NCBI RefSeq assembly: GCF_058153355.1
Contig: NZ_CM177019.1
Reading direction: 5' to 3' (one strand)
DNA: 64,000 bases
Of the stretch, positions 1 through 17,181 are shown piece after piece. The notes beneath the pieces are model-generated. The model did not search any database, had not been told where the DNA came from, and saw only the letters and a list, made by a program, of their open reading frames with translations. The first letter of the stretch is position 1. Each line of letters starts with the position of its first letter. The translations under genes and the position numbers were made by a program.

Positions 1-509
1 GATATCACCGTCTCAGCTCCTGTATAAGCAAGGACAGCAGATTTTCATTCACTGCCCCGTTCAACCGAAGGGTGCCGTTTCTGAACGTAATCTCACAGGA
101 GATGCTGTGTATTTCCGGTGTTACTGACGGTCTTGCGGTCAGTGGCTCATTAGCCGGAGCAGTTGGGAGTTGGGCATCAATAGTGACAGGAATTAACTGA
201 GATTCTCTGCCTGATTCTGATGATGGCAATTTTATCTTCCCCTGCCGCCATTTCTGACGCCATTTGAACAACAGATTGGCATTAATACCATTGTCCAGGG
301 CCAGTCTGGAAATTGAAACACCTGGCTGGAATGATGCTTCTATGAGTCGTTGTTTGAATTCAGGAGGATAATTCAGGCACCCTTTAGGCCTTCCCGGAGA
401 GGCATTTTTTTGTATATCTGACATTTTTATCACCCACTATTAATTTAGTGGTGGATACTTTGTCCAAAGCATCGGGAATTTGCCAGACGGTCCTGATAAG
501 ACGCTTACG
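1..509 (-). mobile_element. IS66-family insertion sequence, partial (continues beyond window start); putative terminal inverted repeat ends near 509
   Basis: tnpA-like ORF at 5..433; a GTG overlapping the tnpA stop at the window edge begins a second ORF (V-I-S..., tnpB-like overlap arrangement); minus-strand sequence at 503..509 reads GTAAGCG, the GTAA terminus typical of IS66-family inverted repeats. Confidence 0.4.
5..433 (-). CDS. IS66-family transposase accessory protein TnpA (orf1-like, HTH)
   Basis: 142-aa ORF; motif PEFKQRLIEASFQPGVSISRLALDNGINANLLFKWRQKWRQG matches the HTH_Tnp_1 pattern of IS66 orf1 proteins. Confidence 0.55.
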   Translation of the reverse strand: MIKMSDIQKNASPGRPKGCLNYPPEFKQRLIEASFQPGVSISRLALDNGINANLLFKWRQKWRQGKIKLPSSESGRESQLIPVTIDAQLPTAPANEPLTARPSVTPEIHSISCEITFRNGTLRLNGAVNENLLSLLIQELRR

Positions 510-1244
510 CTAATGACGCTTATTGTCACGCAGAAAAATGAATTGAATTTATTCAGGAAAAAGCATGGTGCTCGTGTCCAGGGGGATGGTTTTTTTGCCC
601 GCTGTCTGTGGTCTGTAACTACATCAACGCAGGGTATAAGAGCTCATCAACCTGATGTCCACGTAGATACCAGCGTTCTGGATAAATTTAACAAACGAGT
701 CGAGGAATTACTTGAACAAACGCTTGCCGGAACCACTCCCAGCGTTCTGCGCTTTTCTGTGGAAGCGGAACATCGCTTTGCTCAATATCAGAATGAAATT
801 GAGCAAAGAATATTAACAGAGAAAGGAGGGCATGAAGCACTGCCGGGAATTTTATCAAAGCTACCTGAGAATGCGGTAAGGCTGGCAGCATTAATGCACT
901 TTTTTTATGAATTTAAGGGTGATGAGATTGATGTAGCAACACTAAACTATATTTTTATGATTATGGAATATTATTACCAACAAGCAGTCAATATTTTGAC
1001 TGCCAGCCTGAGTTCCGATGAGGAGGACGCTAAAAGACTCTGGGAGTGGTTAATGACAGGCCATTTCTCGACGTCTACCTCAGTCGCGAAGTCAGAGATA
1101 AGACGTTATGCGCCCTACCAGCTGCGTGATGTAGTCCGCTATAACAAAGCGTTAAAATATCTTGAGGATATTGGTAGGATATATATAAAAAAGTACAAAA
1201 ACGGTAACGGTACTGTCAGTCAAGTGATTGATATCAATCGTTAA
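480..1244 (+). CDS. hypothetical protein, probably N-terminally truncated by the IS66-like element (possibly a DUF3987/YfjI-like C-terminal fragment)
   Basis: 254-aa ORF whose first codons lie inside the putative IS terminus; no recognisable catalytic motif. Confidence 0.3.
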   Translation: MPDGPDKTLTLMTLIVTQKNELNLFRKKHGARVQGDGFFARCLWSVTTSTQGIRAHQPDVHVDTSVLDKFNKRVEELLEQTLAGTTPSVLRFSVEAEHRFAQYQNEIEQRILTEKGGHEALPGILSKLPENAVRLAALMHFFYEFKGDEIDVATLNYIFMIMEYYYQQAVNILTASLSSDEEDAKRLWEWLMTGHFSTSTSVAKSEIRRYAPYQLRDVVRYNKALKYLEDIGRIYIKKYKNGNGTVSQVIDINR

Positions 1245-1301
1245 TGTAAGATATGCATAACTACTCCTCTGCTTTTCCTGCTCCGAAGAGCAGAAATCGC
1301 A

Positions 1302-1311
1302 GGGGGGGGGG
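1302..1311. repeat. G10 homopolymer tract in an intergenic region
   Basis: direct read: a followed by ten g at 1302..1311. Confidence 0.9.
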
Positions 1312-1508
1312 ATTGCCTGAAAATTTTCCTGCATGAAAAGCACACTTTGTATCCGTATAGGAAAAACCAGACGACAACAGTGTAAACCTTACGGTTAACA
1401 TTTTAACCCAGGTCTGACGACTGTCAGGTTCGTGCTGATGCTTTTTATTTTCTGTGAAGCAGAATGCTTTGCTGAATGACATTTTGAGTTTCTGTATTAC
1501 AGGAGTGA

Positions 1509-1790
1509 TTGATGATTAGGTGCCACCTGAACAGACTGATGGGTGAACGCAGATTAAAGGTTGCCGATGTGGTCCGCGATACCGGTCTTCCGCGTAGCAC
1601 TGTCACAGCGCTCTGGAAAGATAACGCCACCCGGATTGAGTTGCCAGTGCTAAGCATTCTCTGTCATTATTTTAATTGTGATGTCAGTGAGTTACTGGAG
1701 TTTACTTCTGATGAAAGTCACGTTGAGTTATCTCGTCCAGGAAAAGGTTTAAATAATTTTTCACATCGTGTCTGGTTTATGCGTAAATAA
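1509..1790 (+). CDS. small XRE/Cro-like helix-turn-helix protein
   Basis: 93-aa ORF; LKVADVVRDTGLPRSTVTALW ... DVSELLEF resembles XRE-family HTH. Confidence 0.4.
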   Translation: MMIRCHLNRLMGERRLKVADVVRDTGLPRSTVTALWKDNATRIELPVLSILCHYFNCDVSELLEFTSDESHVELSRPGKGLNNFSHRVWFMRK

Positions 1791-1886
1791 GACAAAATCA
1801 TTAGTGGGTTGTATTTTAATGTTAATGATTTTGTCATTATTAATTTTAGATTTGTTGCTTTTTACCAAAGTTTTGTTTATTCATAG

Positions 1887-2606
1887 CTACCATTTTAAAT
1901 AATTACAAGCAGCAGTGTCTGCTCTATATGAACAGTTTATTTTAGCTGCTTCGTAGCCGATTAAACCTATAATGGGGTTATTGTTCTCATTGTCGTTGTA
2001 AATATCTTTTAGGAGGTTATCTCCTTGTTGGCTGGCCCAGCTCTGAGAGTCATTATTAAAATCATAATAATATTTTGCTGAGAGCAGTTGGACGGGTTGC
2101 TCGGTATCTGGCAAAACGCTCCAGATAATAATTTGCTTAACTCTGATGATTTCATTTTCAGCCTGTTTTTTAGCTGCGCTTAAACCTTCTTTCAATTTTG
2201 AATTGTCTGGTTCTTTCTTAAAACAATAAGGATCACTTCCATTGGCGACACAGGCCTCATTGTATTGGTCTATAGAGCGCTTTGCGCTTTCTATCAAACT
2301 GGCGTAGCCATTAGCAAACCGAGTCATTTCCCTTTTCCAAATGCTATTTGTTGCAGATGCCGACATATCACACGTATAAGTAACAGTCTGGTGTCCTTGT
2401 TCATCGGTTCCATCTTCCCATTTAAACAATTCACATCGCTGGCGATGCTCTAATGCAGTCCCAAGGGTTCTGGTTGAGTCTATATTTGATAATACCTGTG
2501 ATTTTATAATTTCCTGATTGTCTGAAGCGGATACATTATCACAGCCAGTAAGAATAAATATTGAGCAACTGATAAACAATCCAATAAGTACTTTTCTTTT
2601 AGACAT
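1887..2606 (-). CDS. hypothetical lipoprotein
   Basis: 239-aa ORF; N-terminal signal peptide with lipobox LTGC. Confidence 0.5.
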   Translation of the reverse strand: MSKRKVLIGLFISCSIFILTGCDNVSASDNQEIIKSQVLSNIDSTRTLGTALEHRQRCELFKWEDGTDEQGHQTVTYTCDMSASATNSIWKREMTRFANGYASLIESAKRSIDQYNEACVANGSDPYCFKKEPDNSKLKEGLSAAKKQAENEIIRVKQIIIWSVLPDTEQPVQLLSAKYYYDFNNDSQSWASQQGDNLLKDIYNDNENNNPIIGLIGYEAAKINCSYRADTAACNYLKW

Positions 2607-2682
2607 GAGTGATTCCTTTTTAAGTTTTGGTAAATTACGTGACCTTGACTAAATCAGGTCTGATAAGATGGTTAATCTGGTT

Positions 2683-3153
2683 TTAATGAATGAAGGGCAT
2701 ATGTTCGATGCCTGTATAAAGTAAATTGCTCCTGGCATTGATCGTATTGGTCAGACAGGCGTGACTTTCAATTTCTTTACCCATAGAGTTCATGACACTG
2801 ATATGAGCATCAGGCTGACCTTTGTACTCTTCATAAGTGATAGCCATAGCGCCTTCTATATTCTCTCCAGTTCCTCGCAATACAAAGACTCTATTGTCAG
2901 TAACATCATTTGCGGTGATGGACTGCTGCGCTTGACCTGAATGAGTATTCAGTTTGATGACTACGCTGCCTTTATCAGAACTTTTATCCTGTGATTTATA
3001 GGTAATATATACGATGTCTTTTTTATGACTCAGTGTCATAACCCCACCAGTATCAAGTGTGCATTTTAGATCCCAGTTTTCCTGACCAGCCAGTGAAGAA
3101 CTGCTTAACAACATTAGTATATAAAAAGATGCTTTTATTTTTACAATATTCAT
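2683..3153 (-). CDS. hypothetical secreted protein
   Basis: 156-aa ORF with hydrophobic N-terminal signal sequence ending ...SSLAGQ. Confidence 0.45.
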   Translation of the reverse strand: MNIVKIKASFYILMLLSSSSLAGQENWDLKCTLDTGGVMTLSHKKDIVYITYKSQDKSSDKGSVVIKLNTHSGQAQQSITANDVTDNRVFVLRGTGENIEGAMAITYEEYKGQPDAHISVMNSMGKEIESHACLTNTINARSNLLYTGIEHMPFIH

Positions 3154-3189
3154 ATAGCCTGCTGATTAAGTGGGGCGACTATTCTTAAT

Positions 3190-3945
3190 TTATGAAGCTG
3201 CTCCTCTATTAATACTCTTTATCTGATGAGCAATATTTTTATATGAACGATGATTAGCCGAGTTCATTACATCATGGATATAAGGAAAATGAGGTAAGGA
3301 TGAGATGAACCGCTCACCCGCAGTGAGATGGCAGATGTCATCTCTGCGCACAAAACTCTCTGTGGTTAACTTCACCTGGATGATGCTGGCTACTGGAATA
3401 ACCCTGATTATTTCGGCCTGACAGGCAACTAAATACCATTTTCCTTCCGTGTGAATAAGACGATAAGGTTCAAAGACCGCGTGAGAATCATTGCCAGTCA
3501 GCAAATGAATACAGTTTTGTTGACAGATCGCCTGTATCAGCCGCTGAAAACATTCTGATGATACAACCGAGTCAGAATGCGATGAAGACCAGATAAGGCA
3601 GGGAGAATACGACGTTTCACCCGTGAGGTAATGCATCAACCTGCGATCAGGTGACGGAAATAATTGAGAGATTCCGGTGTTACGCATAAACGCCAGAACA
3701 TCTAATGAACTGTCTGTAAAGCGTTTCCCGTCAAGTCGCCAGCGCCCATTCTCACTAACGATATTAAGGTGGAGTAATCGCTGGTGGAAATCTCGCTGTA
3801 GCGTTCGTTCAGATACTCCAAACTCTTCTGCCAGGTTTTTTAGGTCAAGAGACTCTCCTGACAGTAACCGGCTAATAATCTGTGTCAGCCTGATGGCAAA
3901 CCGGTCATAACGAGTCGATGTAGTGTTCATCAGAAAAACGTCCAT
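3190..3945 (-). CDS. WYL-domain transcriptional regulator (YfjR/BrxR-like); start codon uncertain (ORF extends to 4068)
   Basis: motif EPYRLIHTEGKWYLVACQ (WYL signature) plus N-terminal HTH-like region LKNLAEEFGVSERTLQRD. Confidence 0.55.
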   Translation of the reverse strand: MDVFLMNTTSTRYDRFAIRLTQIISRLLSGESLDLKNLAEEFGVSERTLQRDFHQRLLHLNIVSENGRWRLDGKRFTDSSLDVLAFMRNTGISQLFPSPDRRLMHYLTGETSYSPCLIWSSSHSDSVVSSECFQRLIQAICQQNCIHLLTGNDSHAVFEPYRLIHTEGKWYLVACQAEIIRVIPVASIIQVKLTTESFVRRDDICHLTAGERFISSLPHFPYIHDVMNSANHRSYKNIAHQIKSINRGAAS

Positions 3946-4166
3946 GGATAACTTACTGTTTTTAATGATGTTATTATGAATCATGAGCACGACAGGATAT
4001 GTCGTAGTAACGGGAGGAATAGAGAAAAAACGTCCAGACAAATAACTAAGTAATATCCTGATTAACAATAACTATTTTTTCCAGAGACAGAACTGAAGCA
4101 GGTCGCGACATATCCTGTCGCTGAAACTCATAATTTTCAGGTGGCTTAACTCAGTGGGTAGATGTA

Positions 4167-5051
4167 TTAGAAAAACCAGTGCCATATTGCGGTAGCTGCA
4201 TTCTCCAGCCCTTCTCTGAGCACTCCCAACCCGTTGCGTATCATGTTGGGGAGAGGTATGGCCTCCAGAATCCTGCTCAATAATTCTCCCAACAAATCCG
4301 CGAAATCCTTTCGGGCCTTCGTCTCCGATTCTTTGGTGCGATGTTCTTTCCTGATCTGGCGAAAGACGCCACTGGTAGCCTCTGGTGGCAGGGCAAAAAT
4401 CATTGTTTCAACTATACGAGACATGTTGTAACCGGTTTTTGCTGAAACAGCATGCACCGGGTAAGGGGTAAAGAACTGGCGGGAAACGGCAGCACTTCTC
4501 GCTGTGAGCGTCATGAGTTGCTTCACTGAAGGAGATCCTTTTTCACGATCCCATTCCAGTGATGGCTCGGCTTTGTCAGCCTGGTTGATAACAAAAACAA
4601 TGCTGTCTGTCGATACGCCACAATCCAGTAGAAAACGGTGGAATTCTTCGTCTGTGGTACAGGCGCGGTCATCGGCTTTCATCACCCAGAGAATGAGATC
4701 CAGCTTCGGTAACTGTTCCTGATACATCTGGCGATATATCTCATCATGCTTCAGCGATTCACCTGCGCCCGGCAGATCGATCAGCGTCAGGCTGCGTCCT
4801 CCAGCGTTCAGGGTAAAATGCAAAGGTTTACGTGTGCAGCCTTCTGCATGGCTGACTGGGCTGAGAGGATGTTCAAAAAGAGCATTGCAAAGCGAGGATT
4901 TTCCGGCACCTGTTTTGCCCATGATGCCAATCACGGGTTCGTAATGAATACTCTGGCGTATATGCTCCAGAACCAAATCGGAGATATGTTCAGGAAGAAT
5001 GGATAAAGGTTGCTTCAGGACATTAATGCCCCGTTCAAAGGAATCAGACAT
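4167..5051 (-). CDS. YfjP/YkfA-family GTPase (P-loop GTP-binding protein)
   Basis: G1 motif GKTGAGKSS, DLPG (G3-like) and NQADK (G4 NKxD-like); GGAGG RBS upstream of the ATG at 5051; ORF extends to 5105. Confidence 0.6.
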   Translation of the reverse strand: MSDSFERGINVLKQPLSILPEHISDLVLEHIRQSIHYEPVIGIMGKTGAGKSSLCNALFEHPLSPVSHAEGCTRKPLHFTLNAGGRSLTLIDLPGAGESLKHDEIYRQMYQEQLPKLDLILWVMKADDRACTTDEEFHRFLLDCGVSTDSIVFVINQADKAEPSLEWDREKGSPSVKQLMTLTARSAAVSRQFFTPYPVHAVSAKTGYNMSRIVETMIFALPPEATSGVFRQIRKEHRTKESETKARKDFADLLGELLSRILEAIPLPNMIRNGLGVLREGLENAATAIWHWFF

Positions 5052-5215
5052 GTAGCCTCCGGAATGAAAAAATTCGATACAGCAACTTCGCTGCAATGTA
5101 TTCATTGCGGTAATACAGGTCTGTTTTTTTTTGCATTCGAATTACGGGGAGGAATGTGGTTTTGTGGAGCAAACCGGGGGCATTGCCCCGGTTCACTGAT
5201 ATGGTGAAATGATAT

Positions 5216-5455
5216 CTAACGTCGCATTACCCATTCATTCAGTTCTGACTCCAGCCAGCCAACGGATTGCCTTCCCAAGCGTTTTTGTTTTGGAAATGTT
5301 CCATCGTAGCGTGGCGATTTTGGATTAAGCCAGTCGTATATGGTTGAGCGTGAAATTCCCATTTTTTTCATTACATCTTTTAGCCTCAAGATCCTCGGTG
5401 AATCAGGAATATTTGCGTAACTGGATGTATGTAAGGAGGGAGGGTTCTGTAACAT
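5216..5455 (-). CDS. alpA: AlpA-family phage regulatory protein (HTH)
   Basis: 79-aa ORF; ISRSTIYDWLNPKSPRYDGTFPK matches the AlpA signature of P4/CP4-57-type elements. Confidence 0.65.
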   Translation of the reverse strand: MLQNPPSLHTSSYANIPDSPRILRLKDVMKKMGISRSTIYDWLNPKSPRYDGTFPKQKRLGRQSVGWLESELNEWVMRR

Positions 5456-5568
5456 CTAGGCTTCCTTAGTATGAGTTTGTTCGGGTGGGTCCATATTGCC
5501 AACCACGCTGGGGCTGTCATACACTGGAAGTAACATTAAAATAAAATCACTTTAGGGATTTACTTTTC

Positions 5569-6450
5569 ATGAAGGATGTGGGTGCGAATTTTTTTGATGA
5601 TTTCTATCTGCAAGTTTGTACCGCTTGTGAGGACAAACTTCTTGAGCTGGAATGGAAACTTGAAGTCGAAAAAAAGGAGAGCAACCAAGATGTTCTGCGC
5701 ACTTACAGGCAAAGAGCCTATGATAAAATTGAAGAATTTAAAATTATTGAGTATTCAAAAATACAATGTCAATATTTTGTAGATATGACTAATAGCGACA
5801 ATATACGCTACTCACAAGAGTTTATAAATGTTGATGGAATAATGGTTGAGAAACCTTTTATTTATAAGGAAACATATGCAGAATATCGGATTGAAATTCG
5901 AGGAAAAATGGACGGGTATAAACTGACAGGATTAGCAAGACTATATGATGCACATTATGAATATATATATCTATCTATGGCTTTAGAAGATTTTTACTGG
6001 GCGCAGTTCCAATATTCATTGGGCAATAAAAAAGAAAGTTGTAAGTTTCTTCTTGATGCTTATTCTTATATGAATGTCTGTATTTCGCGAGATGATAACC
6101 GAGACTCACCGAGTTTTCATCGATTAAGAAGTGGTTTTGATAAAGTATGCAGAAGAGCGCGCTCAAGCGCTGGAGGGAAAAATAAACTTGCAGAACTTGA
6201 ATATATTAAAGATACAGTTGTTATCTTACTTGAAGATATTCCTTCACATAGCGACTGGAAAAATAAACGTCAACTTCTTGAATATTTAATGCCCTATATT
6301 TGTAATAATGATAAAAAGGTCAATCCAGATAAATGGATAAATGATACAGGCGATAGAGAGGAAACTATCCGCCGCAGACTTAATAAATGGTTTACAGGTG
6401 ATCTAAAAGTAGAGATTGATAAAGTCCTAAAGAACAATACTAACAATTAA
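5569..6450 (+). CDS. hypothetical protein, AT-rich orphan
   Basis: 293-aa ORF, strongly AT-rich codon usage, transcribed divergently from alpA; no recognisable motif. Confidence 0.5.
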   Translation: MKDVGANFFDDFYLQVCTACEDKLLELEWKLEVEKKESNQDVLRTYRQRAYDKIEEFKIIEYSKIQCQYFVDMTNSDNIRYSQEFINVDGIMVEKPFIYKETYAEYRIEIRGKMDGYKLTGLARLYDAHYEYIYLSMALEDFYWAQFQYSLGNKKESCKFLLDAYSYMNVCISRDDNRDSPSFHRLRSGFDKVCRRARSSAGGKNKLAELEYIKDTVVILLEDIPSHSDWKNKRQLLEYLMPYICNNDKKVNPDKWINDTGDREETIRRRLNKWFTGDLKVEIDKVLKNNTNN

Positions 6451-6681
6451 TATTATTATGGTTTTGATATTTTTATGTCTATCAGGAGGGCTACTATACG
6501 ATCAGTCTTGATGGGTTTGAAATTACATCGCTATGAAAATACCCCACATAAATCTATTGGAAAACCAATCATTGTTAATATGACTATTGTTATGATGACT
6601 GTTGTAATTGTGTCTACACGAGAAATTGAATGAAATTTATAGGTTTGAAGTAGCCTTAGTGGTAGTCGAAAATAATTATGT

Positions 6682-6713
6682 AAATGGGCCTGCATTTTGC
6701 AAGAAGGCCCATT
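6682..6713. terminator. hairpin between convergent genes (aaatgggcc ... ggcccattt)
   Basis: 9-bp inverted repeat read directly. Confidence 0.3.
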
Positions 6714-6717
6714 TACG

Positions 6718-7047
6718 TCAGGGGTAAATTATATATCCCATAATCGCACAGATTAACCGGTAATCACTCACGTAGAAGATTTCCGGATTCTCAGTGCTTT
6801 GTTCACCGATAAAGAAGACTTGAGCTCTCTCTTTAGCTTTTTTATTTACTGCTTCTTTTGCTTCTTCCTGCACAGTTTCAAGCTCATTCAAAAGCATAGT
6901 CTTTTTGGCTTTTGACCAGTCTCCCCACTCAATGTGTAGTTTATAGCTACGCGAGGGCTTAAACTTACCAGATTCGTCTTTTGCCCATTCTCCCGAGAGC
7001 GGAATGACAATTCGGTTTTCGTCTTGCTCAAATTTCTGCCATAACAA
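6718..7047 (-). CDS. hypothetical protein (109 aa)
   Basis: ORF co-directional with and downstream of the STAND gene; no motif recognised. Confidence 0.4.
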   Translation of the reverse strand: MLWQKFEQDENRIVIPLSGEWAKDESGKFKPSRSYKLHIEWGDWSKAKKTMLLNELETVQEEAKEAVNKKAKERAQVFFIGEQSTENPEIFYVSDYRLICAIMGYIIYP

Positions 7048-7094
7048 CTGCGAATAAAAAACTCGGCGCTCAGGGTAGGGTTGAACCGGGTCTT

Positions 7095-7628
7095 TTAGTT
7101 TTTTAACACGGTCATGTAAGTATCGGCATTAATACCTGGGATAATTAATGACATACCACGGTCATACGGGAAGCGAATAAATGCCCTACAAATCTGGCGA
7201 ATAGCATTAACCGGGCGGCGGGATTGCCGCGCTGGAGCATTTCCCTCGCTGGATGCCGATGTTGTAGAACGTATTGGATTGGGTTTGTTGTTGTTACCAG
7301 TAGTGTCAGGATCAACAACGGGTCGATTTTCAATCAGTTTTAATCCTGCAGGCATCAAACCTGGTGCGCTATCTAACATGCGGCGGACGCTTTTCTTCTG
7401 CCCCTGTTTAACCACTGTGCTTTCTGCATCAGCATCGCAATTAATGTGCTCTTTTCCAGGCATTTTATTAAACGAAGGTCTTTTCTTACTTCCTTTTTGC
7501 CAAGCAGAAGGATACATCTCAATCCCACATCCCCAGCATACGTAACTGTTCGTATCTACAACATCAAGTAACCAAAGATCTTCTGCCTCAATAATCTCAC
7601 TGGTATATTTATCACGTGCAGATTCCAT
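7095..7628 (-). CDS. hypothetical protein (177 aa) with a CxxC motif
   Basis: good RBS (aaaggagaaatc then ATG); starts 45 bp after the STAND gene stop; contains C-W-G-C. Confidence 0.5.
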   Translation of the reverse strand: MESARDKYTSEIIEAEDLWLLDVVDTNSYVCWGCGIEMYPSAWQKGSKKRPSFNKMPGKEHINCDADAESTVVKQGQKKSVRRMLDSAPGLMPAGLKLIENRPVVDPDTTGNNNKPNPIRSTTSASSEGNAPARQSRRPVNAIRQICRAFIRFPYDRGMSLIIPGINADTYMTVLKN

Positions 7629-7673
7629 GATTTCTCCTTTAAACAGAATTCCTGTGAAGGCGGCTACTAGCCT

Positions 7674-10600
7674 TCATTCAAACCGTTGTTCCAATGCCTC
7701 ATCTTCCAATCGCTCGCGTTCTTTTTCCTTTTCAACCCAGTTAGTCAGTTTTTTATAAACAGCTCTAGCCGACTTAGAAATGTCTGCACGCTCGTGGGTG
7801 ACCAACCGGCCTATCGCTTCAACCCTGGGTTGCATCACGTTCGCACGACTACCGGACCATGATGAAGGTGCTACGTGTTCGGCAAAGATCTCAAGGACGG
7901 CTCGTGGCTCGGGTGAGGCTTCTAGAAATCTCAGAGCATCATCCTGCAAGCAAATAGGACTTTGCTCCCCGTCTTTTGACCATAGATTAATACCTGAAGC
8001 GACTGAAGCCCAAACCTGAGGGTCTTTAGTGGTCCCGCACCATTCAATCAAAATATCTACATCGATTTTCGCAATAGGAGACTGATGTGAATCATCATGA
8101 TTGATGAAATGCAGCCGCCTCTGTTGTTGATCCTCCGTACCATCAAAAATGCGACTGAGAAATTCTTTTGGCATCCATGCAGCGGTGATACCGATAGCGT
8201 CTTCGAAAGAAAAAATGTAGCCAAAATGCTCATCAACAACAGCAAAGATTGTATTCAGCCATTCTAGCTTTTCAGCCTCGTTGCCATCGAAGCGCAATGT
8301 GGCATCGATAACACGTTCCATTGCATAATCCAGATATCCGCCGAGATCGTTGTGATCTCTTTGGAACCTCTGGATTGCAGCGGATAGTCCAATTGTTCGT
8401 AGCGCAAGACCTAGTGTATCCGTAGCATCTCCTTTATCAGGTAGTTTCATACTCAATGCTTCCAATACTACTTCATCACCATTCGGTTTACTCAGCAGCC
8501 TTTGAGCAAGCTCGAGAACCCTGCTTTCTGGCAAATTAGAGAATTGCTCACCCCACAGAATTGCCCCATACATATGGGGCCGTATGTCAGAGTCATCCAG
8601 AAGCGACATGCAACGATCCAGATCGATTTCAGTAAACTCCTGCCAAGGATGTAGGTTGACTAATTCGAATCGAAGTTCGGAATGTTGTGCGCACTGATCG
8701 AGCAGTTCCTGCGCTAATGCTTTATCGATAGAATTCGTCTCTTCTATGAAACCTCGAATAACAGAAAAATCACTTTGAGATTTATGCTGTAGATTCATTT
8801 GAGTGATAAGTTTCTGCCAATAAACTCGTAGGTCAGGTGCTCCTTTAGCTAAGCCTTTACCGAATTCGACGCGATAGGGCATCCCATCTCGTAAGAATAA
8901 ATTAGGGCCTAACTCATCAAGTTCATGCGTGGATACTGCAAAGTCTTGCCCTAACTGGAACGCTTTTGCGTTAAGTATTTCCTTTATTTTTATGAATTTG
9001 TTAGGCCCCTCACGCTCAAAATCGGCATTCAGCGCCCAAAAATCACGCCCCTTACTGAGTACATAAGCCATAACTGCCGGAACCAAGTCATTAGGCTCCA
9101 ATTCTCGTTCCAATGTCACAAGTCCTTCCGGCAAAGGAGCTAAATCTTCGTTGTCATTTCTTTTGGTATGGGAAAAGTAAATTGTTGAGCGGACCGCTTT
9201 CCAGCCTTCACCCCAAGGACGATGGGCATGTAATTTGCGAGCCGCATCAATTAATTTTGACCTCATTCCTTCCTGACGCCAAATCCAGCGAAATTTATTA
9301 GCTAAGATCAGCCGAGCATCATCTTCAAGTTCGGGAACTCTTGAAGTTGCTAATCTCACCACAATGTCGATGAAGGTGATTAGCCACTCAACAAGCTCAT
9401 CGTAGCTGGGTCGAAATCCATAATCTCTTGGCCGAGCACCAAACTCATTAATCCCGAATCCTGTCCACGGTGGTCCGCCGAGAGCAGTTTCAAGCATTTC
9501 GAGCCCCAGCCTTCTACGTCCGGCCATACTTGAACCAATGCATTCATCCATGACCGCAACACGTTGTTCTAAAGAGGCATGGGTACCGGATAGATAAGGT
9601 TGGAAAAACCTCTTTATCTTATTTCGAGCCGAATCATAATTATTGCTCGCGCTTTCCTGATCTGCGATACGGATTAAGAGCTTAATGCATCGTTCAAAGT
9701 ATTTCGATTCATATGCAAGTAACTGCAACAATTTGATAATTGCTGTTCGTTGTGGGTTGTAGCGTGATTTAAAATGCTCAAAATTAGACGTAACAAGTGT
9801 TTCTTCAATCCGCTCAAGCAAAGCTCCCGGGGCGACTGGAGCGACATAATTCAGAATGCGTGTCGAAACATCATCTAGGTCTATTATTTTTCCAAGCAGC
9901 CCTTCGGGCTGTAACCAAGCTTCAACAATCTCTTTAGCCACAGCATGGCTGTGCAATAGTCCCAACCTGTGCGCGAACGACATCAATAATCGTTGTCGAT
10001 CCGGAGCTTCAAAGGTCGTCCTAAGTTGATCAATCGGAATACTATTAAGTGCAGATGCTGCCAACTTGTTAGCAATGGCATGGGGAAGGATGGCTCTCCA
10101 GTGGGATCTTTTCTGAACAACGTGACGTTCCATCAACTTCGTAACAGTTTTGAATAACTGGATTTTGGGATACCCAGAGAGCGCACCCAATATTTCCAGT
10201 TCATCGGTAGCTGCATCTGAACTAGATATTGAGAACGAATACACCAGTGACAATATTTCAGCTTGCTCCCGTAAATGGCCGTCGGGATGATTACGTTGTT
10301 CAAACAAGCGATTAAACAACTGCGCATCTGAAAGTAGGGCTAAACTCTCACCTTCCTCCACTCTTTCCGCTATAGCCAAAGCCACTCTTGCATTCCCATC
10401 TGCGAACTTTGCAATCCGACGGGCATTATTCTGACCAATAGAAGGGAAGCGACGGATAAGAAGTTGCTCTGCCACCTCTGGACCATCTGTCTCAATGTGG
10501 ATGACCTCAGTTGTCTGTGGTTTGTCATCCCTAATGTCGTACTCGATCGTGATGAGACTTACTTCTTTCCCTGCGGCTGATACTTTGCTGGCAAGCGAAG

Positions 10601-11525
10601 CATGGAGTTCTGATGGGCAATTATCAAGGATCATAATTGCTCGTCGGCCTTCAGCGAGCAGGTTATCAAGCATTGCTGTAGCCGACGGTACTGGCTCATA
10701 GCCAGTATCAACATAAATAGCTACTGTCCGGTCAAGCGCATCTGTTCCAACAGTATCATCAAAGAGCGCCTGAACGATTCGAGTCTTCCCAACACCAGAC
10801 AATCCTGTAATACGAACAGCCTTATTCGTCGAACGGATCAGTGCTCGCATTGGGTTAATTGCTTCATCAATTTTGAGTTTTTGCCCCTTTCCCGATGGTA
10901 AAGTAATGGTTACGCTTGGGGCTGAGATTAAAGTGTCTGTAACACCTTGTGGTGGATTGCTCCAGGCTCCGTAGGGTTGCCAACCGGAATACCCTTGCCC
11001 AAGCTTTGCTTTTACCCACAGCATGACTGATGGATGTTGGCGCAACCATTGGATGAGTTTGGAGCGGTCGTAGAAATCAAGATGAAGATAACTTTCGTTA
11101 GGATCATCTTTTACTGCATCTCTCATCGCTTTGAGACGATTCTTCTTTCCTGACGGCGAGCAATCATCACCCAGGCTGACAATGATGTAACTGCCTTGCT
11201 TTCTGGCTTGTTCAGAAATGATGGGAGAAAGTGCTTTTCCGGTGCCAATTTCCCTCTCGATTGCAGCCTTAGGCATCTTATGTTTCTTTGCCTGAAAGAC
11301 CGTATCAGGTCTTACAAGAAAGCCTGCTTTCAGTTGATCAACTGGAACCTGAACATGGATGTCAATTCCTCCGTCAGGGGCTGTAATTGAACCAGACCAA
11401 TTTACACATGCTGGGCTATGGCCGTGCATTGCCACTTCAGCTTCTGCTAGCCGAGCGATCAGCTCTTCCAACTGGATATCGGAGAGCCGAAGTAATTCGT
11501 CCTTTTCAATGTCAAAGATTGCCAC
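7674..11525 (-). CDS. Mrr-like (PD-(D/E)xK) nuclease / STAND P-loop NTPase / long helical C-terminal domain protein; Avs-like antiphage candidate
   Basis: 1283-aa ORF; N-terminal DGGID (residues 51-55) ... QAK (78-80) resembles the Mrr catalytic core; Walker A GLSGVGKT encoded at 10782..10805; Walker B-like AIMILDN; GNARVALAIA resembles the GxP motif of STAND NTPases. Confidence 0.7.
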   Translation of the reverse strand: MAIFDIEKDELLRLSDIQLEELIARLAEAEVAMHGHSPACVNWSGSITAPDGGIDIHVQVPVDQLKAGFLVRPDTVFQAKKHKMPKAAIEREIGTGKALSPIISEQARKQGSYIIVSLGDDCSPSGKKNRLKAMRDAVKDDPNESYLHLDFYDRSKLIQWLRQHPSVMLWVKAKLGQGYSGWQPYGAWSNPPQGVTDTLISAPSVTITLPSGKGQKLKIDEAINPMRALIRSTNKAVRITGLSGVGKTRIVQALFDDTVGTDALDRTVAIYVDTGYEPVPSATAMLDNLLAEGRRAIMILDNCPSELHASLASKVSAAGKEVSLITIEYDIRDDKPQTTEVIHIETDGPEVAEQLLIRRFPSIGQNNARRIAKFADGNARVALAIAERVEEGESLALLSDAQLFNRLFEQRNHPDGHLREQAEILSLVYSFSISSSDAATDELEILGALSGYPKIQLFKTVTKLMERHVVQKRSHWRAILPHAIANKLAASALNSIPIDQLRTTFEAPDRQRLLMSFAHRLGLLHSHAVAKEIVEAWLQPEGLLGKIIDLDDVSTRILNYVAPVAPGALLERIEETLVTSNFEHFKSRYNPQRTAIIKLLQLLAYESKYFERCIKLLIRIADQESASNNYDSARNKIKRFFQPYLSGTHASLEQRVAVMDECIGSSMAGRRRLGLEMLETALGGPPWTGFGINEFGARPRDYGFRPSYDELVEWLITFIDIVVRLATSRVPELEDDARLILANKFRWIWRQEGMRSKLIDAARKLHAHRPWGEGWKAVRSTIYFSHTKRNDNEDLAPLPEGLVTLERELEPNDLVPAVMAYVLSKGRDFWALNADFEREGPNKFIKIKEILNAKAFQLGQDFAVSTHELDELGPNLFLRDGMPYRVEFGKGLAKGAPDLRVYWQKLITQMNLQHKSQSDFSVIRGFIEETNSIDKALAQELLDQCAQHSELRFELVNLHPWQEFTEIDLDRCMSLLDDSDIRPHMYGAILWGEQFSNLPESRVLELAQRLLSKPNGDEVVLEALSMKLPDKGDATDTLGLALRTIGLSAAIQRFQRDHNDLGGYLDYAMERVIDATLRFDGNEAEKLEWLNTIFAVVDEHFGYIFSFEDAIGITAAWMPKEFLSRIFDGTEDQQQRRLHFINHDDSHQSPIAKIDVDILIEWCGTTKDPQVWASVASGINLWSKDGEQSPICLQDDALRFLEASPEPRAVLEIFAEHVAPSSWSGSRANVMQPRVEAIGRLVTHERADISKSARAVYKKLTNWVEKEKERERLEDEALEQRFE

Positions 11526-11972
11526 ATCCTAACCCTATTAAAGATACTGCGACTATATAAAAAGTTACCCTTATTCTAACCAATGACAGAAGGAATGTCC
11601 CTTAAACCGTTGCAATTAAAACCATTCTCATCAAGTAGTTAAGATTTTCTTACTCAGCACTATGATGTTGATCTTACCCACTTTGCGTCAAACTATTAGT
11701 ATGTATAAAGCACATTGCTGGCCTGATTAAGAAATGGATTGATATGTGAGTTAATGTCATTTATGAGCTTAAAGCTATTTTTAATCCCCTTTGCTTTACA
11801 ACTCTTTATATTATTTCATTCTTATTTACACCAATATTTATTGGTATGATGGTTTAATTTAATTCATTTTTGTTTTTTTGTTTGAAGCACATTGAAAGGA
11901 TATTATTATTTTCTCCTTCATGTTGAAAACAATTTAATTGGGCGGGTTTGGTTCGATATTATTAATATCTTT

Positions 11973-12000
11973 TTCAAAGAAATTATTTATATGGTATAAT
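11973..12000 (+). promoter_or_regulatory. putative sigma70 promoter with extended -10 (ttcaaa ... tggtataat)
   Basis: -35-like ttcaaa at 11973..11978, 16-bp spacer, TGnTATAAT at 11992..12000, within a long AT-rich tract upstream of the nuclease-helicase gene. Confidence 0.3.
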
Positions 12001-12032
12001 GCAATAAAATCGTATTGAGGTAAGAGGGTACT

Positions 12033-12227
12033 ATGAGTGGATCTTTTGATTTCTTAGCTGGTTCTTTGGCTCTTGAAAATAAACCTTTCCATATGCAGGT
12101 TGCAGAGCTAATAAAAAATAAGTTTCGTCATTGTGAGGGATATATTGGCTATAAGCTTGCAACTTTGGGACGGGCATCGGACTCCGATGTTCCAGATTTT
12201 ATCATTATACAAAAGAACATGGCATAA
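12033..12227 (+). pseudogene. 5' portion of nuclease-helicase gene (NERD/PD-(D/E)xK-like N-terminus), separated from the helicase frame by an apparent -1 frameshift
   Basis: 64-aa ORF with RBS gaggtaagaggg; ends ...SDVPDFIIIQKNMA; adding one A to the A4 run at 12211..12214 gives DFIIIQKEHGIILVDMVESK, continuous with the helicase ORF. Confidence 0.45.
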
Positions 12228-12238
12228 TTTTAGTTGAC

Positions 12239-14248
12239 ATGGTTGAAAGTAAGGTTTCTCGTGCGGATGAGGTGCAGGGGAATGAGGTTTGGTATTATGA
12301 GCATGGAGGTTCGAGTGTAGCAAGGAATTTTATTGTCGAGTTGTATGAGGAGGAGGTAAGAAGTAGATTAAAAAACGATGCAAATTTCTACAACAGAAGA
12401 AAAAAAACATGCACAGTTCCGATTACTAGCGCTGTTATTTTTTGTAAAAATAATAATAGTGAGATAGACAATTTCTATCAAGAGTATGCTGATTATGAAA
12501 GTTCAGCTATTGAATATGGCGAGATTGAGAATTGGTTAGATAGCGTTGAAGAAGGGTTCAATTGCGATTCTAAAGTTCTGGGGCGAATTTTTTCATTGTT
12601 AGAGGGGACGTTTATATATGAAAATAAAAAAATTCTCGATGAAGAACCACCCCTTAACACTGTGAATGATTATATCAAAAAATCTCTAAATATAACATTT
12701 AATCAAGATCACTCACAACGTATTGCTTCAATGCAACTAACCCCGGGCCCTCAGAGAATTCGTGGCTTGGCCGGAACAGGTAAGACGATAGTTCTTTCAT
12801 TAAAAGCTGCGATAACGCACAAAAAATTTCCAGATTATAAAATATTATATTTATTTAATACACAAAGCTTATATCAAAATGTGCAGAGTTCAATCGCCAG
12901 ATACTATACTTTAGAAGCCAAAAAAGCGCCAGATTTTGAATCGAATCTAAATGTCTTCCATGCGTGGGGTGGTAGGCAGAAACCGGGACTGTATTCATAT
13001 ATTTGCCAACAGTATGGATTAACTCCACTAACATTAGGAGATGTACGTGGAGCAAGTGATGCCTTAGCTGTCATATATGCAGAACTTCTCAAAAAAATCG
13101 GTGGTGATATAAAGCCTGAATATGATCTTATTTTAATAGATGAAGCCCAAGATTTTCCTAAAGAGTTGTTTGAAGTGGTCTTTAAACTAGCAAAGGGCAA
13201 ACCTCATGAGAAAAGGATCGTTTGGGCGTATGATGAATTCCAGTCATTGAAAGACACTCAAATTAAAGGTCCATCTGAGCTATTTGGTTTGGCCAAAGAT
13301 GGCACCCCAAATATGAGTGATGATGTTTTAGATGGATTCTATCCTGGTGACATAAAAAAAGATATTGTTTTATCCAATTGCTATAGGACTCCTCGTCCTG
13401 CTCTTATGACTGCTCACGGAGTAGCATTAGGACTTTATACTAATAAGCCGAATGAAATGTTTTATAACCATGATGAATGGAAAGCTATTGGCTATAAAGT
13501 TTTAAATCCTCAGACAAAAATCATTGCAAAAGGCAATGATGTGCAAATAGAGAGACCTAATGAAAATAGTCTAAATCTGTTGGAAGGAATTATGACAGAG
13601 CAGGGTAAGAGGGCCCTTAACCTTATCCAGACTAAGGTGGAAAATGATCGGGAAAGTCAATATGAATATATTGCAAGTAACATCAAACGTTTAATTGATG
13701 AGGAAAATGTCTCGCCTGAAGAAATAGTCATAATTAATTTGAAGTCCTCTAGTAACAAAGATGAGATGCTACGCATTCAATTCATCTTAAATAATTACGG
13801 TATTCACTCTGTAATTCCCGGTTACGTTGAAAGCTCAGATGTCTTTAAACCCAAGGGGTTCGTTACAATCACAACCCCTTTCAGGGCTAAAGGGAATGAA
13901 GCTAATATTGTATTTATTTTAAATAGCCAGTTAGTTGTTAATGATTTTTCATTAAGGATGCGTAATGCATTTTTTGTAGCAGTAACTCGAACAAGAGGAT
14001 GGTGTTATATTGTTGGTTATGGAGAAAAAATGCAAATGCTTGTGGACGAAATTTCAGGAATCAAAAGAGATTTCCCTATATTTAATTTCATTTGTCCTGA
14101 CCCTGATGATGTCAAAGCACGAAAAAGTTATCTCCACAAATCAGACTCTGAGATCAATGAGATGCAAAGAGTACTGGATTTAGTTAATAATAACGAAGAG
14201 TTAAGACGACTGCTACAGGAGCAGCTCATTGATAAGAAAGGAGATTAA
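12239..14248 (+). CDS. SF1 helicase (UvrD/RecD-like), probable C-terminal body of a nuclease-helicase fusion
   Basis: 669-aa ORF; Walker A GLAGTGKT at 12764..12787; Walker B LILIDEAQDF; FVAVTRTRGW motif VI-like. Confidence 0.7.
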   Translation: MVESKVSRADEVQGNEVWYYEHGGSSVARNFIVELYEEEVRSRLKNDANFYNRRKKTCTVPITSAVIFCKNNNSEIDNFYQEYADYESSAIEYGEIENWLDSVEEGFNCDSKVLGRIFSLLEGTFIYENKKILDEEPPLNTVNDYIKKSLNITFNQDHSQRIASMQLTPGPQRIRGLAGTGKTIVLSLKAAITHKKFPDYKILYLFNTQSLYQNVQSSIARYYTLEAKKAPDFESNLNVFHAWGGRQKPGLYSYICQQYGLTPLTLGDVRGASDALAVIYAELLKKIGGDIKPEYDLILIDEAQDFPKELFEVVFKLAKGKPHEKRIVWAYDEFQSLKDTQIKGPSELFGLAKDGTPNMSDDVLDGFYPGDIKKDIVLSNCYRTPRPALMTAHGVALGLYTNKPNEMFYNHDEWKAIGYKVLNPQTKIIAKGNDVQIERPNENSLNLLEGIMTEQGKRALNLIQTKVENDRESQYEYIASNIKRLIDEENVSPEEIVIINLKSSSNKDEMLRIQFILNNYGIHSVIPGYVESSDVFKPKGFVTITTPFRAKGNEANIVFILNSQLVVNDFSLRMRNAFFVAVTRTRGWCYIVGYGEKMQMLVDEISGIKRDFPIFNFICPDPDDVKARKSYLHKSDSEINEMQRVLDLVNNNEELRRLLQEQLIDKKGD

Positions 14249-14250
14249 AA

Positions 14251-14922
14251 TTGAATTTCTCATTAGTGCAGCAAAGCTTAAACCATGTCGAAGCACTTTT
14301 AAAACCTGTAACTCAACAAAAATTAATAGAGTTTAAAGAAAGAGAGAAGGTCATAAGTTGGACAAATAGGAAGCCAGGAATTTACAATGAAGTCTACTAT
14401 CCTATTGAATATCAATGTGTAATTGATGCAAGGCAGTACTCATTATTGCTTCGAGATGGCGATTTTTTTCAATTTTTTTATGAGTTTGATGCGAAAACTG
14501 GCAATCTGAAGAAAGCTAAGTTGGCTTTCTATCCCTCACCAATTGATTGTAGAAATTCGTTGGATGATCTCAATGAAGCAGCTGAATTTGCTTTTGATCA
14601 TAATGAAGAACTCTATAATCATCTTGATAATTGGATTTCGCTATTGGAAATAAAAAACTATTTTCCAGCAAATACATCTCAAGTTAGATTTGATTATGAT
14701 AGTACGGTTACTACACATGAGAAAGCACATCTGCAGTTTAGTAGTGTAAATAAACTTAGACTTCCGGCTGACTTTTTTCCTTTGCCATATGCATTTGTAT
14801 TAATGGTTTCTGATCTTATTAATGGATGCTCAAAGGTAGATGCTAGACATATAAGCTTTACTAAGAGAAACAGCCTAAGATCAAATGTTTCTAATAGAAT
14901 CATAACCTTGAAATCACAGTGA
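14251..14922 (+). CDS. hypothetical protein, helicase-coupled partner (223 aa)
   Basis: TTG start 3 bp after the helicase stop, AGGAG RBS 7 nt upstream; AT-rich; no motif recognised. Confidence 0.5.
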   Translation: MNFSLVQQSLNHVEALLKPVTQQKLIEFKEREKVISWTNRKPGIYNEVYYPIEYQCVIDARQYSLLLRDGDFFQFFYEFDAKTGNLKKAKLAFYPSPIDCRNSLDDLNEAAEFAFDHNEELYNHLDNWISLLEIKNYFPANTSQVRFDYDSTVTTHEKAHLQFSSVNKLRLPADFFPLPYAFVLMVSDLINGCSKVDARHISFTKRNSLRSNVSNRIITLKSQ

Positions 14923-16614: not shown

Positions 16615-16818
16615 TGCCGGGTTTCCATAGTTTTAGGCACCTCAAAAACAATAAAGCTTTATGAGGTGCCTAACAAGGTGCCTAAAAGGTTCGGATTTAA
16701 TTAGTTCTCTTCGGACTTCGCGGGACAAATTGAGGGCACAAAAAAGCCCGCAGGGCTTGCGCCGTGCGGACTCTTAGGACTTCATCGGATGACTCTGGTA
16801 ATCACCGATGGAGAATTT

Positions 16819-17181
16819 TGGTGGAGCTGGCGGGAGTTGAACCCGCGTCCGAAATTCCTACATCCTCGGTACTACATGCTTAGTCAGTCTTTACATTCGC
16901 TTGCCAGCTGCGGACGGACACGCCACTAACAAACTAGCCTGATTAAGTTTTAACGCTTCAACCCCAGGCAGGGCTTCCACGCGATCTCTTTTGGGTTTGA
17001 CCTCTCTTGATCCCCGTCCTAAGAGCGGAGGCTAGGGAGAGAGGGCTCTAAGCAGGTTATTAAGCTGCTAAAGCGTAGTTTTCGTCGTTTGCGACTATTT
17101 TTTGCGGCTTTTTACGAGGCCAACCGCCCCTCGGCATGCACCTTGGGTTTCGCAAATCCCGTCGAATCCAGAATCAGCCCC
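16819..17181 (-). ncRNA. ssrA: tmRNA (SsrA)
   Basis: reverse complement begins GGGGCTGATTCTGGATTCGACGGG and ends ...GTTCAACTCCCGCCAGCTCCACCA; tag-encoding region present. Confidence 0.92.

What the first reader, a model, noticed from the sequence alone, without database searches (positions are those of the whole stretch)
1302..1311. G10 homopolymer in an island intergenic region
Seen: ten consecutive G residues between the truncated ORF ending at 1244 and the XRE-like gene starting at 1509. Established: long homopolymers are rare in E. coli and prone to slipped-strand mispairing. Inference: possible phase-variable promoter spacing or 5'UTR, or a homopolymer sequencing artefact.
Basis: partly seen in the sequence, partly recalled or inferred. 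Interest (0 to 1): 0.4.

Follow-up and report, generated by a model that had tools for sequence, protein, structure and literature searches.

The report
Slippage-expanded G-run in yfjI hairpin arm
The ten-G run is real, but it is the over-grown end of one arm of a conserved hairpin that sits just after the yfjI gene of a mobile island; it has lengthened by replication slippage in this lineage, shows no sign of being a promoter switch, and is therefore ordinary.

Summary
G10 is at 1302-1311 exactly and is the only G/C run of 7 or more in the 64-kb window. It is probably not an assembly artefact: an independently assembled Logan contig is identical to the window over 14,148 bp, G10 included. It is not a free-standing tract. 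Gs 1-6 form the 3' arm (GCAGGGGGG) of a stem-loop that begins 20 nt after the stop codon of the IS66-truncated yfjI (DUF3987) gene and pairs with CTCCTCTGC (1264-1272). The stem-loop is present behind every YfjI homologue sampled, down to 51% protein identity, even where the downstream HTH gene is absent. It shows compensatory changes (82% of cells paired against 43-60% in shifted registers). In strain FEX669 it is a perfect 22-bp hairpin. Relatives carry GAG3T, GAG4T, G6T, G6A, G7T, G7C, GAG6, G8, G8C and G10, and these alleles follow flank haplotypes. G10 is the G8 haplotype plus two Gs. No promoter-like hexamer pair above background spans the tract at any length from 5 to 12. The tract lies 200 nt upstream of the HTH start codon, outside that gene's conserved upstream block. 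Verdict: a mutational by-product in a terminator-like hairpin. Low interest.

The parts
1302..1311 (+). G10 homopolymer. Gs 1-6 (1302-1307) are the conserved purine end of the hairpin's 3' arm. Gs 7-10 (1308-1311) are a lineage-specific extension.
   Evidence: sequence. (pair-by-pair register). (probability of pairing with the 5' arm is 0.74-1.0 for Gs 1-6 and 0.08 or less for Gs 7-10).
1264..1307 (+). Conserved yfjI 3' stem-loop. Outer helix CTCCTCTGC (1264-1272) pairs with GCAGGGGGG (1299-1307). Internal loop TTTTC/AAATC (1273-1277 and 1294-1298). Inner helix CTGCTC (1278-1283) pairs with GAGCAG (1288-1293). Loop CGAA (1284-1287).
   Evidence: The hairpin is present in all 15 distinct YfjI 3' flanks, with 82% of cells paired against 43-60% in shifted registers and 12 of 22 pair positions showing two-sided changes against 2-7. 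It is a perfect 22-bp stem in FEX669 (dG -46.3 kcal/mol, z -8.6).
509..1244 (+). 3' remnant of yfjI (DUF3987 family), truncated by an IS66-family insertion. The hairpin belongs to this gene's module.
   Evidence: homology to intact yfjI starts at about 509. (PF13148, E 2e-27). (RefSeq relatives annotated as YfjI family protein, 470 aa).
1..508 (-). End of an IS66-family element (TnpA accessory protein ORF 5-433) that interrupts yfjI.
   Evidence: NF047595 IS66_ISRel24_TnpA, 88.8 bits against a cut-off of 74. (loss of homology left of about 509).
1369..1511 (+). Conserved block upstream of the HTH gene and left end of the downstream module. It holds operator-like palindromes at 1381-1408 and 1414-1427. 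The G tract lies outside it.
   Evidence: columns invariant across 7 strains. (identity to FEX669/A3 rises from about 80% to 95-99% at about 1369). (palindromes and a minus-strand promoter-like site).
1512..1790 (+). HTH_26 (Cro/C1, XRE-type) regulator gene, 92 aa. Its start codon is 200 nt downstream of the tract.
   Evidence: PF13443, E 5.8e-18. (RefSeq annotation of homologues). (the tract-to-ATG distance is 200-201 nt in all alleles).

Best explanation
The G-run is the purine-rich base of the 3' arm of a conserved stem-loop that lies immediately downstream of yfjI. The stem-loop is most likely the gene's terminator-like or 3'-end-protecting RNA hairpin. The older form of the arm is GCAGAGGGG(T), pairing with CCCCTCTGC. 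In the window's clade an A-to-G change (tolerated as a G.U pair in the + strand RNA) fused the Gs into a G6 run. Slippage and a T-to-G change at the stem/tail junction gave G7T and then G8, and a further +2 slippage in this IS-bearing lineage gave G10. Gs 1-6 pair with the 5' arm, and Gs 7-10 are surplus. The length differences are by-products of run-length-dependent replication slippage and are neutral or nearly neutral. They are not a regulatory switch. Shown: the anatomy, the conservation and covariation of the hairpin, the allele series, and the absence of a promoter. Inferred: the order of the mutational steps, the RNA-level terminator or stabiliser role, and neutrality.
For: Hairpin: FEX669 has a perfect 22-bp stem right after the yfjI stop (dG -46.3, z -8.6). 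The window has a 9 + 6 bp version (z -2.9). The hairpin is present behind YfjI homologues of 97% to 51% identity, including loci where the downstream module is different and has no HTH gene (L017/L018, L020/L021, L023). In a loop-centred alignment of 15 distinct flanks, 82% of cells are paired against 43-60% in shifted registers, and 12 of 22 positions show two-sided changes against 2-7. All changes in the outer 9-bp helix are T-A to T.G or C-G to T.G, which keeps pairing only on the + strand, the yfjI sense strand. The homologous hairpin in L020 meets the intrinsic-terminator criteria (16-bp stem, tail GGATATTGTT). Tract: alleles are GAG3T, GAG4T, G6T, G6A, G7T, G7C, GAG6, G8, G8C and G10. 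Alleles follow flank haplotypes. G8 occurs in at least 2 haplotypes and 5 samples. G6T occurs in at least 4 haplotypes, including Photorhabdus and Intestinirhabdus. G10 has the flanks of the G8 strain R32_14_1F with no SNP in about 900 bp. Gs 7-10 do not pair with the 5' arm. No promoter spans the tract. In E. coli the indel rate depends on homopolymer run length, and 8-bp G.C runs located in tRNA genes are outliers that the authors treat as indel hotspots (PMC8510543).
Against: The window's hairpin lacks a canonical U tract (tail AUUGCCUG), and the scanner calls no terminator there or in L017 or L023. The terminator role therefore rests on position, conservation and one relative. No transcript data were available. 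Neutrality is inferred, not measured. G10 also creates a predicted second small hairpin with AAUUUUCC downstream, which could have an effect. The wobble-only pattern comes from few independent events.
Confidence: 0.72

Rival explanations
1. The tract is a phase-variable regulatory element for the downstream HTH gene. Slippage either sets the spacing of a weak promoter (ATCGCA-N17-GAAAAT, 17 nt only at G10), or inserts unpaired Gs between the terminator stem and its tail. Either way it would change transcription or read-through into the HTH regulator.
For: Run length varies among relatives, and G10 differs from G8 on an otherwise identical background. At G10 the hexamers ATCGCA and GAAAAT are 17 nt apart. 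The surplus Gs are unpaired and change the predicted local fold. yfjI and the HTH gene are on the same strand, 267 nt apart, with no canonical terminator between them.
Against: The hexamer pair scores only 7/12, which is background level (9 such pairs in the 285 bp scanned). Nothing scores 8/12 or better at any length from 5 to 12. The tract is 200 nt from the start codon and outside the conserved upstream block. The hairpin and its G-rich arm occur where no HTH gene follows. Alleles are stably shared across distinct haplotypes and even genera, rather than scrambled as in contingency loci. In the window yfjI is decapitated by an IS, so read-through from its native promoter is moot.
Confidence: 0.08
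2. The tract length is a sequencing or assembly artefact, and the true length in this strain is G8 or G9, miscalled in a homopolymer.
For: The only difference from the closest complete genome over the flanks is the run length. The same assembly also has a 1-bp indel beside a T6 run that frameshifts PD-Lambda-4 B relative to that genome. No reads could be inspected.
Against: A contig assembled by a different pipeline from SRA run SRR31441161 is identical to the window over 14,148 bp, including G10, a T9 run and the frameshift. Four contigs in the collection encode exactly the frameshifted 177-aa product. Other strains show a graded series of real alleles, including substitutions.
Confidence: 0.08
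3. The palindrome acts at the DNA level, as a protein-binding or single-strand origin or recombination site of the yfjJ (inovirus Gp2-like) and yfjI (DUF3987) replication-like module. The G-run would then be part of that site.
For: Each arm carries CTGCT-N5-CTGCT, about one helical turn apart, and this is conserved in sequence down to 51% YfjI identity. The stem is a perfect 22-bp palindrome in some strains. It lies beside replication-like genes (PF11726 and a weak PF23343 REP_ORF2-G2P hit, PF13148) and about 60-100 bp from a mosaic junction at about 1369.
Against: The motif occurs only at the hairpin in each locus, with no iteron array elsewhere in the 12.7-kb loci. Loop sequences are not conserved, so there is no candidate nick site. 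Arm changes are wobble-compatible on one strand only, which is not expected for a duplex DNA palindrome recognised by a dimer. The position directly after the stop codon is typical of a terminator.
Confidence: 0.1

Closest known systems
Rho-independent (intrinsic) terminators and 3'-end-protecting stem-loops of bacterial mRNAs
   Same: A stable stem-loop starts 20 nt after a stop codon on the sense strand. It is conserved in structure with compensatory changes across homologues. One relative (L020) meets the stem plus T-rich tail criteria.
   Different: In the window and several relatives the tail has only 2-3 U in the first 8 nt, and the scanner does not call a terminator. The stem is unusually long (up to 22 bp) and carries a conserved CTGCT-N5-CTGCT motif.
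Simple-sequence contingency loci with homopolymers in promoter spacers (Neisseria porA/opc poly-G/C, Bordetella fim poly-C, Haemophilus hif; from my own knowledge and the reviews listed)
   Same: A long G/C homopolymer sits in an intergenic region upstream of a gene, and its length differs between strains.
   Different: No -35/-10 pair flanks the tract. It is 200 nt from the start codon. Alleles are stably inherited across haplotypes. The tract is an arm of a hairpin that belongs to the upstream gene.
8-bp G.C runs in E. coli leuP/Q/V/T tRNA genes and 7-bp runs in serW/X, reported as indel hotspots (PMC8510543)
   Same: A G.C run that forms part of an RNA stem (stated in the paper for the serW/X runs) acts as a local indel hotspot in E. 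coli because of its length.
   Different: Those runs are in essential tRNA genes and their length is held by selection. Here the surplus Gs lie at the open end of a non-coding hairpin, so length changes are tolerated and accumulate.
Lambda sib / int retroregulation hairpin (RNase III target 3' of a mobile-element gene; from my own knowledge)
   Same: A long, near-perfect stem (about 22 bp, two helical turns) lies 3' of a gene in an integrative element.
   Different: There is no evidence here for RNase III cleavage or for read-through-dependent extension of the stem. Not tested.

Membership tests
SSR phase-variable promoter (contingency locus) | Homopolymer or short repeat long enough to slip at high rate (G/C of about 7-8 or more) | tested here: met
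   G10 at 1302-1311.
SSR phase-variable promoter (contingency locus) | Tract lies between the -35 and -10 hexamers, or otherwise inside a recognisable promoter or the 5' coding region of the regulated gene | tested here: not met
   No promoter-like pair of 8/12 or better spans the tract at lengths 5-12 on either strand. The best pair scores 7/12, which is background. The tract is non-coding and 200 nt upstream of the ATG.
SSR phase-variable promoter (contingency locus) | Tract length varies among closely related isolates, largely independently of phylogeny | tested here: inconclusive
   Length varies (G6 to G10), but alleles track flank haplotypes. Only the G8 to G10 step occurs on an identical background.
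SSR phase-variable promoter (contingency locus) | Within-culture length heterogeneity and length-dependent expression | not testable with these tools
   No reads or expression data were available.
Intrinsic (Rho-independent) terminator | G+C-containing stem-loop shortly after the stop codon on the sense strand | tested here: met
   The stem spans 1264-1307 and begins 20 nt after the stop at 1244. Single-sequence fold z-scores run from -2.7 to -8.6.
Intrinsic (Rho-independent) terminator | U-rich tract (at least 5 of 8) directly after the stem | tested here: not met
   The window tail is ATTGCCTG and no terminator is called. The criterion is met only in relative L020 and not in L017 or L023.
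Intrinsic (Rho-independent) terminator | Structure conserved with covariation among homologues | tested here: met
   82% of cells paired against 43-60% in shifted registers. 12 of 22 pairs show two-sided changes against 2-7.
Intrinsic (Rho-independent) terminator | Transcript 3' ends at the site in vivo or in vitro | not testable with these tools
   No transcriptome data.
REP/BIME or MITE-type repeated extragenic palindrome | Many dispersed copies per genome | tested here: not met
   One place per genome in only 6 of 5,426 complete E. coli genomes, even in distant mode. The arm motif is single-copy per locus.
Known structured RNA family (Rfam) | Match to a curated covariance model | tested here: not met
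   No match at E of 1 or below in window 1-5000.

The most novel reading that the evidence does not exclude
The surplus Gs make a heritable, slippage-adjustable junction between the yfjI 3' hairpin and its tail, or a 17-nt spacer for a weak ATCGCA/GAAAAT promoter. Run length would then tune how much transcription enters the XRE-type regulator gene of this CP4-57-like defence island. That would be a homopolymer switch acting through a terminator arm, a kind of contingency locus I have not seen described for E. coli.
Probability: 0.06. Interest if true: 0.5.

Novelty: new member of a known kind. Interest (0 to 1): 0.12.

Why it matters
It matters little beyond housekeeping. The result shows how a long G-run can arise in E. 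coli without selection. A pyrimidine/purine hairpin arm (CCCCTC/GAGGGG) tolerates A-to-G changes as G.U pairs. That fuses short G blocks into a run long enough to slip, and the run then grows at the open end of the stem. For annotation, the tract should be read as part of the yfjI 3' stem-loop, not as a promoter element of the HTH gene. For typing, the run length is a lineage marker (G10 goes with the IS66-interrupted yfjI lineage). The conserved hairpin with its CTGCT-N5-CTGCT arms, behind a gene of a putative replication module, is the more interesting object, but nothing here shows that it is more than a terminator.

Tried and rejected
1. Promoter-spacer switch. A consensus scan, a scan of synthetic G5-G12 alleles at 8/12 or better and a looser 7/12 scan gave only one background-level pair.
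2. Known RNA family. Rfam at E of 1 or below over window 1-5000 gave nothing.
3. Coding tract. The minus-strand ORFs crossing the tract (1261-1482, 1241-1345, 1152-1343) were rejected because the segment between the conserved flanks differs in length by non-multiples of three among relatives (6, 7, 8, 9 and 10 nt) and the divergent clade has a further 1-nt indel just downstream.
4. Repeated element (REP or MITE). The locus is single-copy and present in 6 of 5,426 genomes.
5. Iteron array or origin. CTGCT-N(4-6)-CTGCT occurs only at the hairpin in each locus.
6. IMG/VR scan for YfjI relatives. No confirmed hit.
7. RNAalifold on the MAFFT alignment recovered only the inner 6 bp, because MAFFT placed the tract gaps on the wrong side. 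This was replaced by a loop-centred gap-free alignment.
8. The 100% conserved block at 1369-1511 first looked like evidence of constraint close to the tract. The identity profile shows a mosaic junction at about 1369, and the tract lies in the more divergent yfjI module.

Full report
**Observation.** Window 1302-1311 is ten consecutive Gs. It lies between the stop codon (1242-1244) of an ORF that is the 3' remnant of a DUF3987/YfjI gene (PF13148, E 2e-27) and an HTH_26 (Cro/C1, XRE-type) gene. The HTH ORF opens at TTG 1509, but its likely start is ATG 1512, which is the RefSeq start in relatives and sits 6 nt after AGGAG. Homology to intact yfjI begins at about 509. To the left is an IS66-family TnpA gene at 5-433 on the minus strand. 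The run is the only G or C run of 7 or more in the 64-kb window, and the iid expectation for a run of 10 or more is 0.07. G/C tracts are about 11.6-fold rarer than A/T tracts in Escherichia (PMC8928963).

**Context.** The locus is the left part of a CP4-57-like island integrated at ssrA. The tmRNA gene is at 16819-17181 and the integrase at 15373-16614. Only 6 of 5,426 complete E. coli genomes carry the locus, once each, on the chromosome. In them the gene order is inovirus-Gp2-family (YagK/YfjJ), YfjI, HTH, two hypothetical genes, a WYL regulator and a GTPase.

**Artefact check.** A contig that the Logan project assembled from SRA run SRR31441161 is identical to window 481-14628 (14,148 bp). 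It includes G10, a T9 run and a frameshift in a defence gene, and it ends at the same IS junction. Four contigs in the collection encode this lineage's marker protein. The G10 is therefore reproducible in an independently built assembly. I could not see reads, so a shared read-level bias of one base cannot be excluded.

**What the tract is part of.** Folding the yfjI 3' flank of the divergent strain FEX669 gave a perfect 22-bp hairpin that starts about 17 nt after the stop codon: TACCCCTCTGCTTTCACTGCTCC/GGAGCAGTGAAAGCAGAGGGGTA (dG -46.3 kcal/mol, z -8.6). The G-rich segment homologous to the window's tract is the base of its 3' arm. In the window the same hairpin survives in a weaker form:
- Outer helix: CTCCTCTGC (1264-1272) pairs with GCAGGGGGG (1299-1307).
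- Internal loop: TTTTC (1273-1277) and AAATC (1294-1298).
- Inner helix: CTGCTC (1278-1283) pairs with GAGCAG (1288-1293).
- Loop: CGAA (1284-1287).
- The fold scores z -2.9.

In the partition function, Gs 1-6 pair with the 5' arm (P 0.74-1.0) and Gs 7-10 do not (P 0.08 or less).

**The hairpin is conserved and belongs to yfjI.** I fetched the 3' flanks of YfjI homologues from 97% down to 51% protein identity. Every one has a stem-loop in the same place. This includes L017/L018, L020/L021 and L023, where the downstream module is different and no HTH gene follows. It also includes Photorhabdus, Lelliottia and Intestinirhabdus. MAFFT misplaced the tract gaps, so RNAalifold saw only the inner 6 bp. 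Because the hairpins are symmetric, I built a gap-free, loop-centred alignment of 15 distinct flanks instead. In it 82% of cells are paired against 43-60% in registers shifted by 1-3, and 12 of 22 pair positions show two-sided changes against 2-7.

Within the outer 9-bp helix, every change is T-A to T.G or C-G to T.G. Pairing is therefore kept only on the + strand, the sense strand of yfjI. This favours a single-stranded + strand structure, most simply the yfjI transcript. The hairpin in L020 meets the intrinsic-terminator criteria (16-bp stem, tail GGATATTGTT). Those in the window, L017 and L023 do not, for lack of a U-rich tail. I therefore call it a terminator-like or 3'-end-protecting stem-loop and mark the function as inferred.

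**Allele series.** The alleles found fall into three groups:
- With window-type flanks: G6T (ETEC6335, a gut metagenome, Intestinirhabdus alba), G7T (two gut metagenomes), G8 (five sources in two flank haplotypes), G8C (two sources), GAG6 (PapM-32-1) and G10 (the window and the Logan contigs).
- With related but diverged flanks: G6T in Photorhabdus viridis (L014) and G6A in two metagenome contigs (L016, L024).
- In more divergent clades: GAG4T, GAG3T and G7C.

Alleles track flank haplotypes. G6T is shared by at least four haplotypes in three genera. G8 is shared by two haplotypes. G10 sits on the haplotype of the G8 strain R32_14_1F with no SNP in about 900 bp of flank.

The most economical history is as follows. 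GCAGAGGGG(T) underwent an A-to-G change, tolerated as G.U, to give G6T. A +1 slip gave G7T, a T-to-G change at the stem/tail junction gave G8, and a +2 slip gave G10. The order is an inference. The steep dependence of E. coli indel rate on run length, and the hotspot behaviour of 8-bp G.C runs located in tRNA genes, are documented (PMC8510543). This fits a pattern in which the short alleles are old and stable and the longest allele changed on an otherwise identical background.

**Is it a switch?** The evidence is against it:
- The consensus scan finds no promoter over the tract.
- Synthetic alleles G5-G12 give no pair of 8/12 or better on either strand.
- The single spanning pair, ATCGCA-17-GAAAAT, has a 17-nt spacer only at G10. 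It scores 7/12, like eight other pairs in the 285 bp scanned.
- The tract is 200 nt from the ATG in all alleles.
- It lies outside the block at 1369-1511, which is invariant among the seven E. coli sequences aligned.

That block is the left end of a separate module. Identity to FEX669 and A3 jumps from about 80% to 95-99% at about 1369. The block carries operator-like palindromes, so the HTH gene's control region is most likely there. The tract is not coding, because the segment between the conserved flanks varies in length by non-multiples of three and the divergent clade has a further indel just downstream. Rfam finds nothing. A DNA-level role for the palindrome is suggested by the conserved CTGCT-N5-CTGCT motif in each arm and by the neighbouring replication-like genes. 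Against this, the motif is single-copy per locus, the loops are not conserved, and the arm changes are strand-asymmetric.

**Verdict.** The G10 is real and is a slippage hotspot. It is best explained as the over-grown end of a hairpin arm that belongs to the upstream gene, not as a promoter-spacing device for the downstream gene. Confidence in this reading is about 0.72. The rivals are a regulatory switch (0.08), an artefact (0.08) and a DNA-level site (0.10). The finding is ordinary: a new example of known things (homopolymer slippage and a 3' stem-loop), of low interest. The residual novel reading is that run length tunes read-through or a weak promoter into the XRE-type regulator. I give it about 6%. 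It could be settled with read pile-ups, RACE or Term-seq, and reporter fusions carrying G6T to G11.

Noticed in passing
window 1-508 (TnpA ORF 5-433, minus strand): An IS66-family element (NF047595, 88.8 bits) interrupts yfjI. Homology to intact yfjI starts at about 509. The same junction is present in Logan contig SRR31441161_19, so the insertion marks this lineage.
   Followed up: partly
window ~1369: Mosaic junction. To the left (yfjI and its hairpin) identity to strains FEX669 and A3 is about 80%. To the right (the HTH gene and onwards) it is 95-99%. The yfjI module and the HTH module have different histories.
   Followed up: partly
window 1381-1427: The block upstream of the HTH gene is invariant among the aligned E. 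coli sequences. It holds overlapping palindromes TGTAAACC-N4-GGTTAACA (1381-1400), GGTTAA-N4-TTAACC (1393-1408) and CTGAC-GACT-GTCAG (1414-1427). It also holds a minus-strand promoter-like site, CTGACA-16-TAAAAT (1427 to 1400, 10/12). This is probably the operator and divergent-promoter region of the XRE-type regulator. A minus-strand transcript from here would run through the C10 and the hairpin.
   Followed up: no
window 7095-7628 and 7674-11525 (minus strand): PD-Lambda-4 anti-phage system. Protein A (1283 aa) matches the profile end to end. Protein B is frameshifted to 177 aa, against 303 aa in R32_14_1F, by a 1-bp indel at about 7104 beside a T6 run. The truncated product is encoded identically in 4 public contigs, so the frameshift appears real.
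   Followed up: partly
window 12239-14248 and 14251-14922 (+ strand): A helicase (PADLOC 'Helicase', E 2e-108) and a DUF2290 protein form an adjacent gene pair between PD-Lambda-4 and the integrase. This is a second candidate defence cargo of the island.
   Followed up: no
window 15373-17181: Integrase (NF007246, full length) lies next to the tmRNA gene ssrA (16819-17181, tag ANDENYALAA). The island occupies the CP4-57 site.
   Followed up: no
window 1269-1282 and 1289-1301; L020 2645-2680; L022 2630-2644; L023 2633-2647: Each hairpin arm carries CTGCT-N5-CTGCT (degenerate on the window's 3' arm). The motif is conserved in sequence down to 51% YfjI identity, although the bases between and outside the motifs covary. 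It occurs once per locus. It could be a recognition motif rather than mere structure.
   Followed up: partly
L014 (Photorhabdus viridis), L028 (Intestinirhabdus alba), L022 (Lelliottia wanjuensis): The yfjI and HTH module, hairpin included, is nearly identical in Photorhabdus and Intestinirhabdus to the E. coli version (the 26-nt left arm matches exactly in I. alba). This indicates recent transfer between genera.
   Followed up: no
window 5124-5132: A T9 run is the longest A/T homopolymer in the window. It lies just past the 5' end of the minus-strand GTPase ORF (4167-5105), between it and the + strand ORF at 5569-6450. It is identical in the Logan contig. Its position relative to promoters was not examined.
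   Followed up: no
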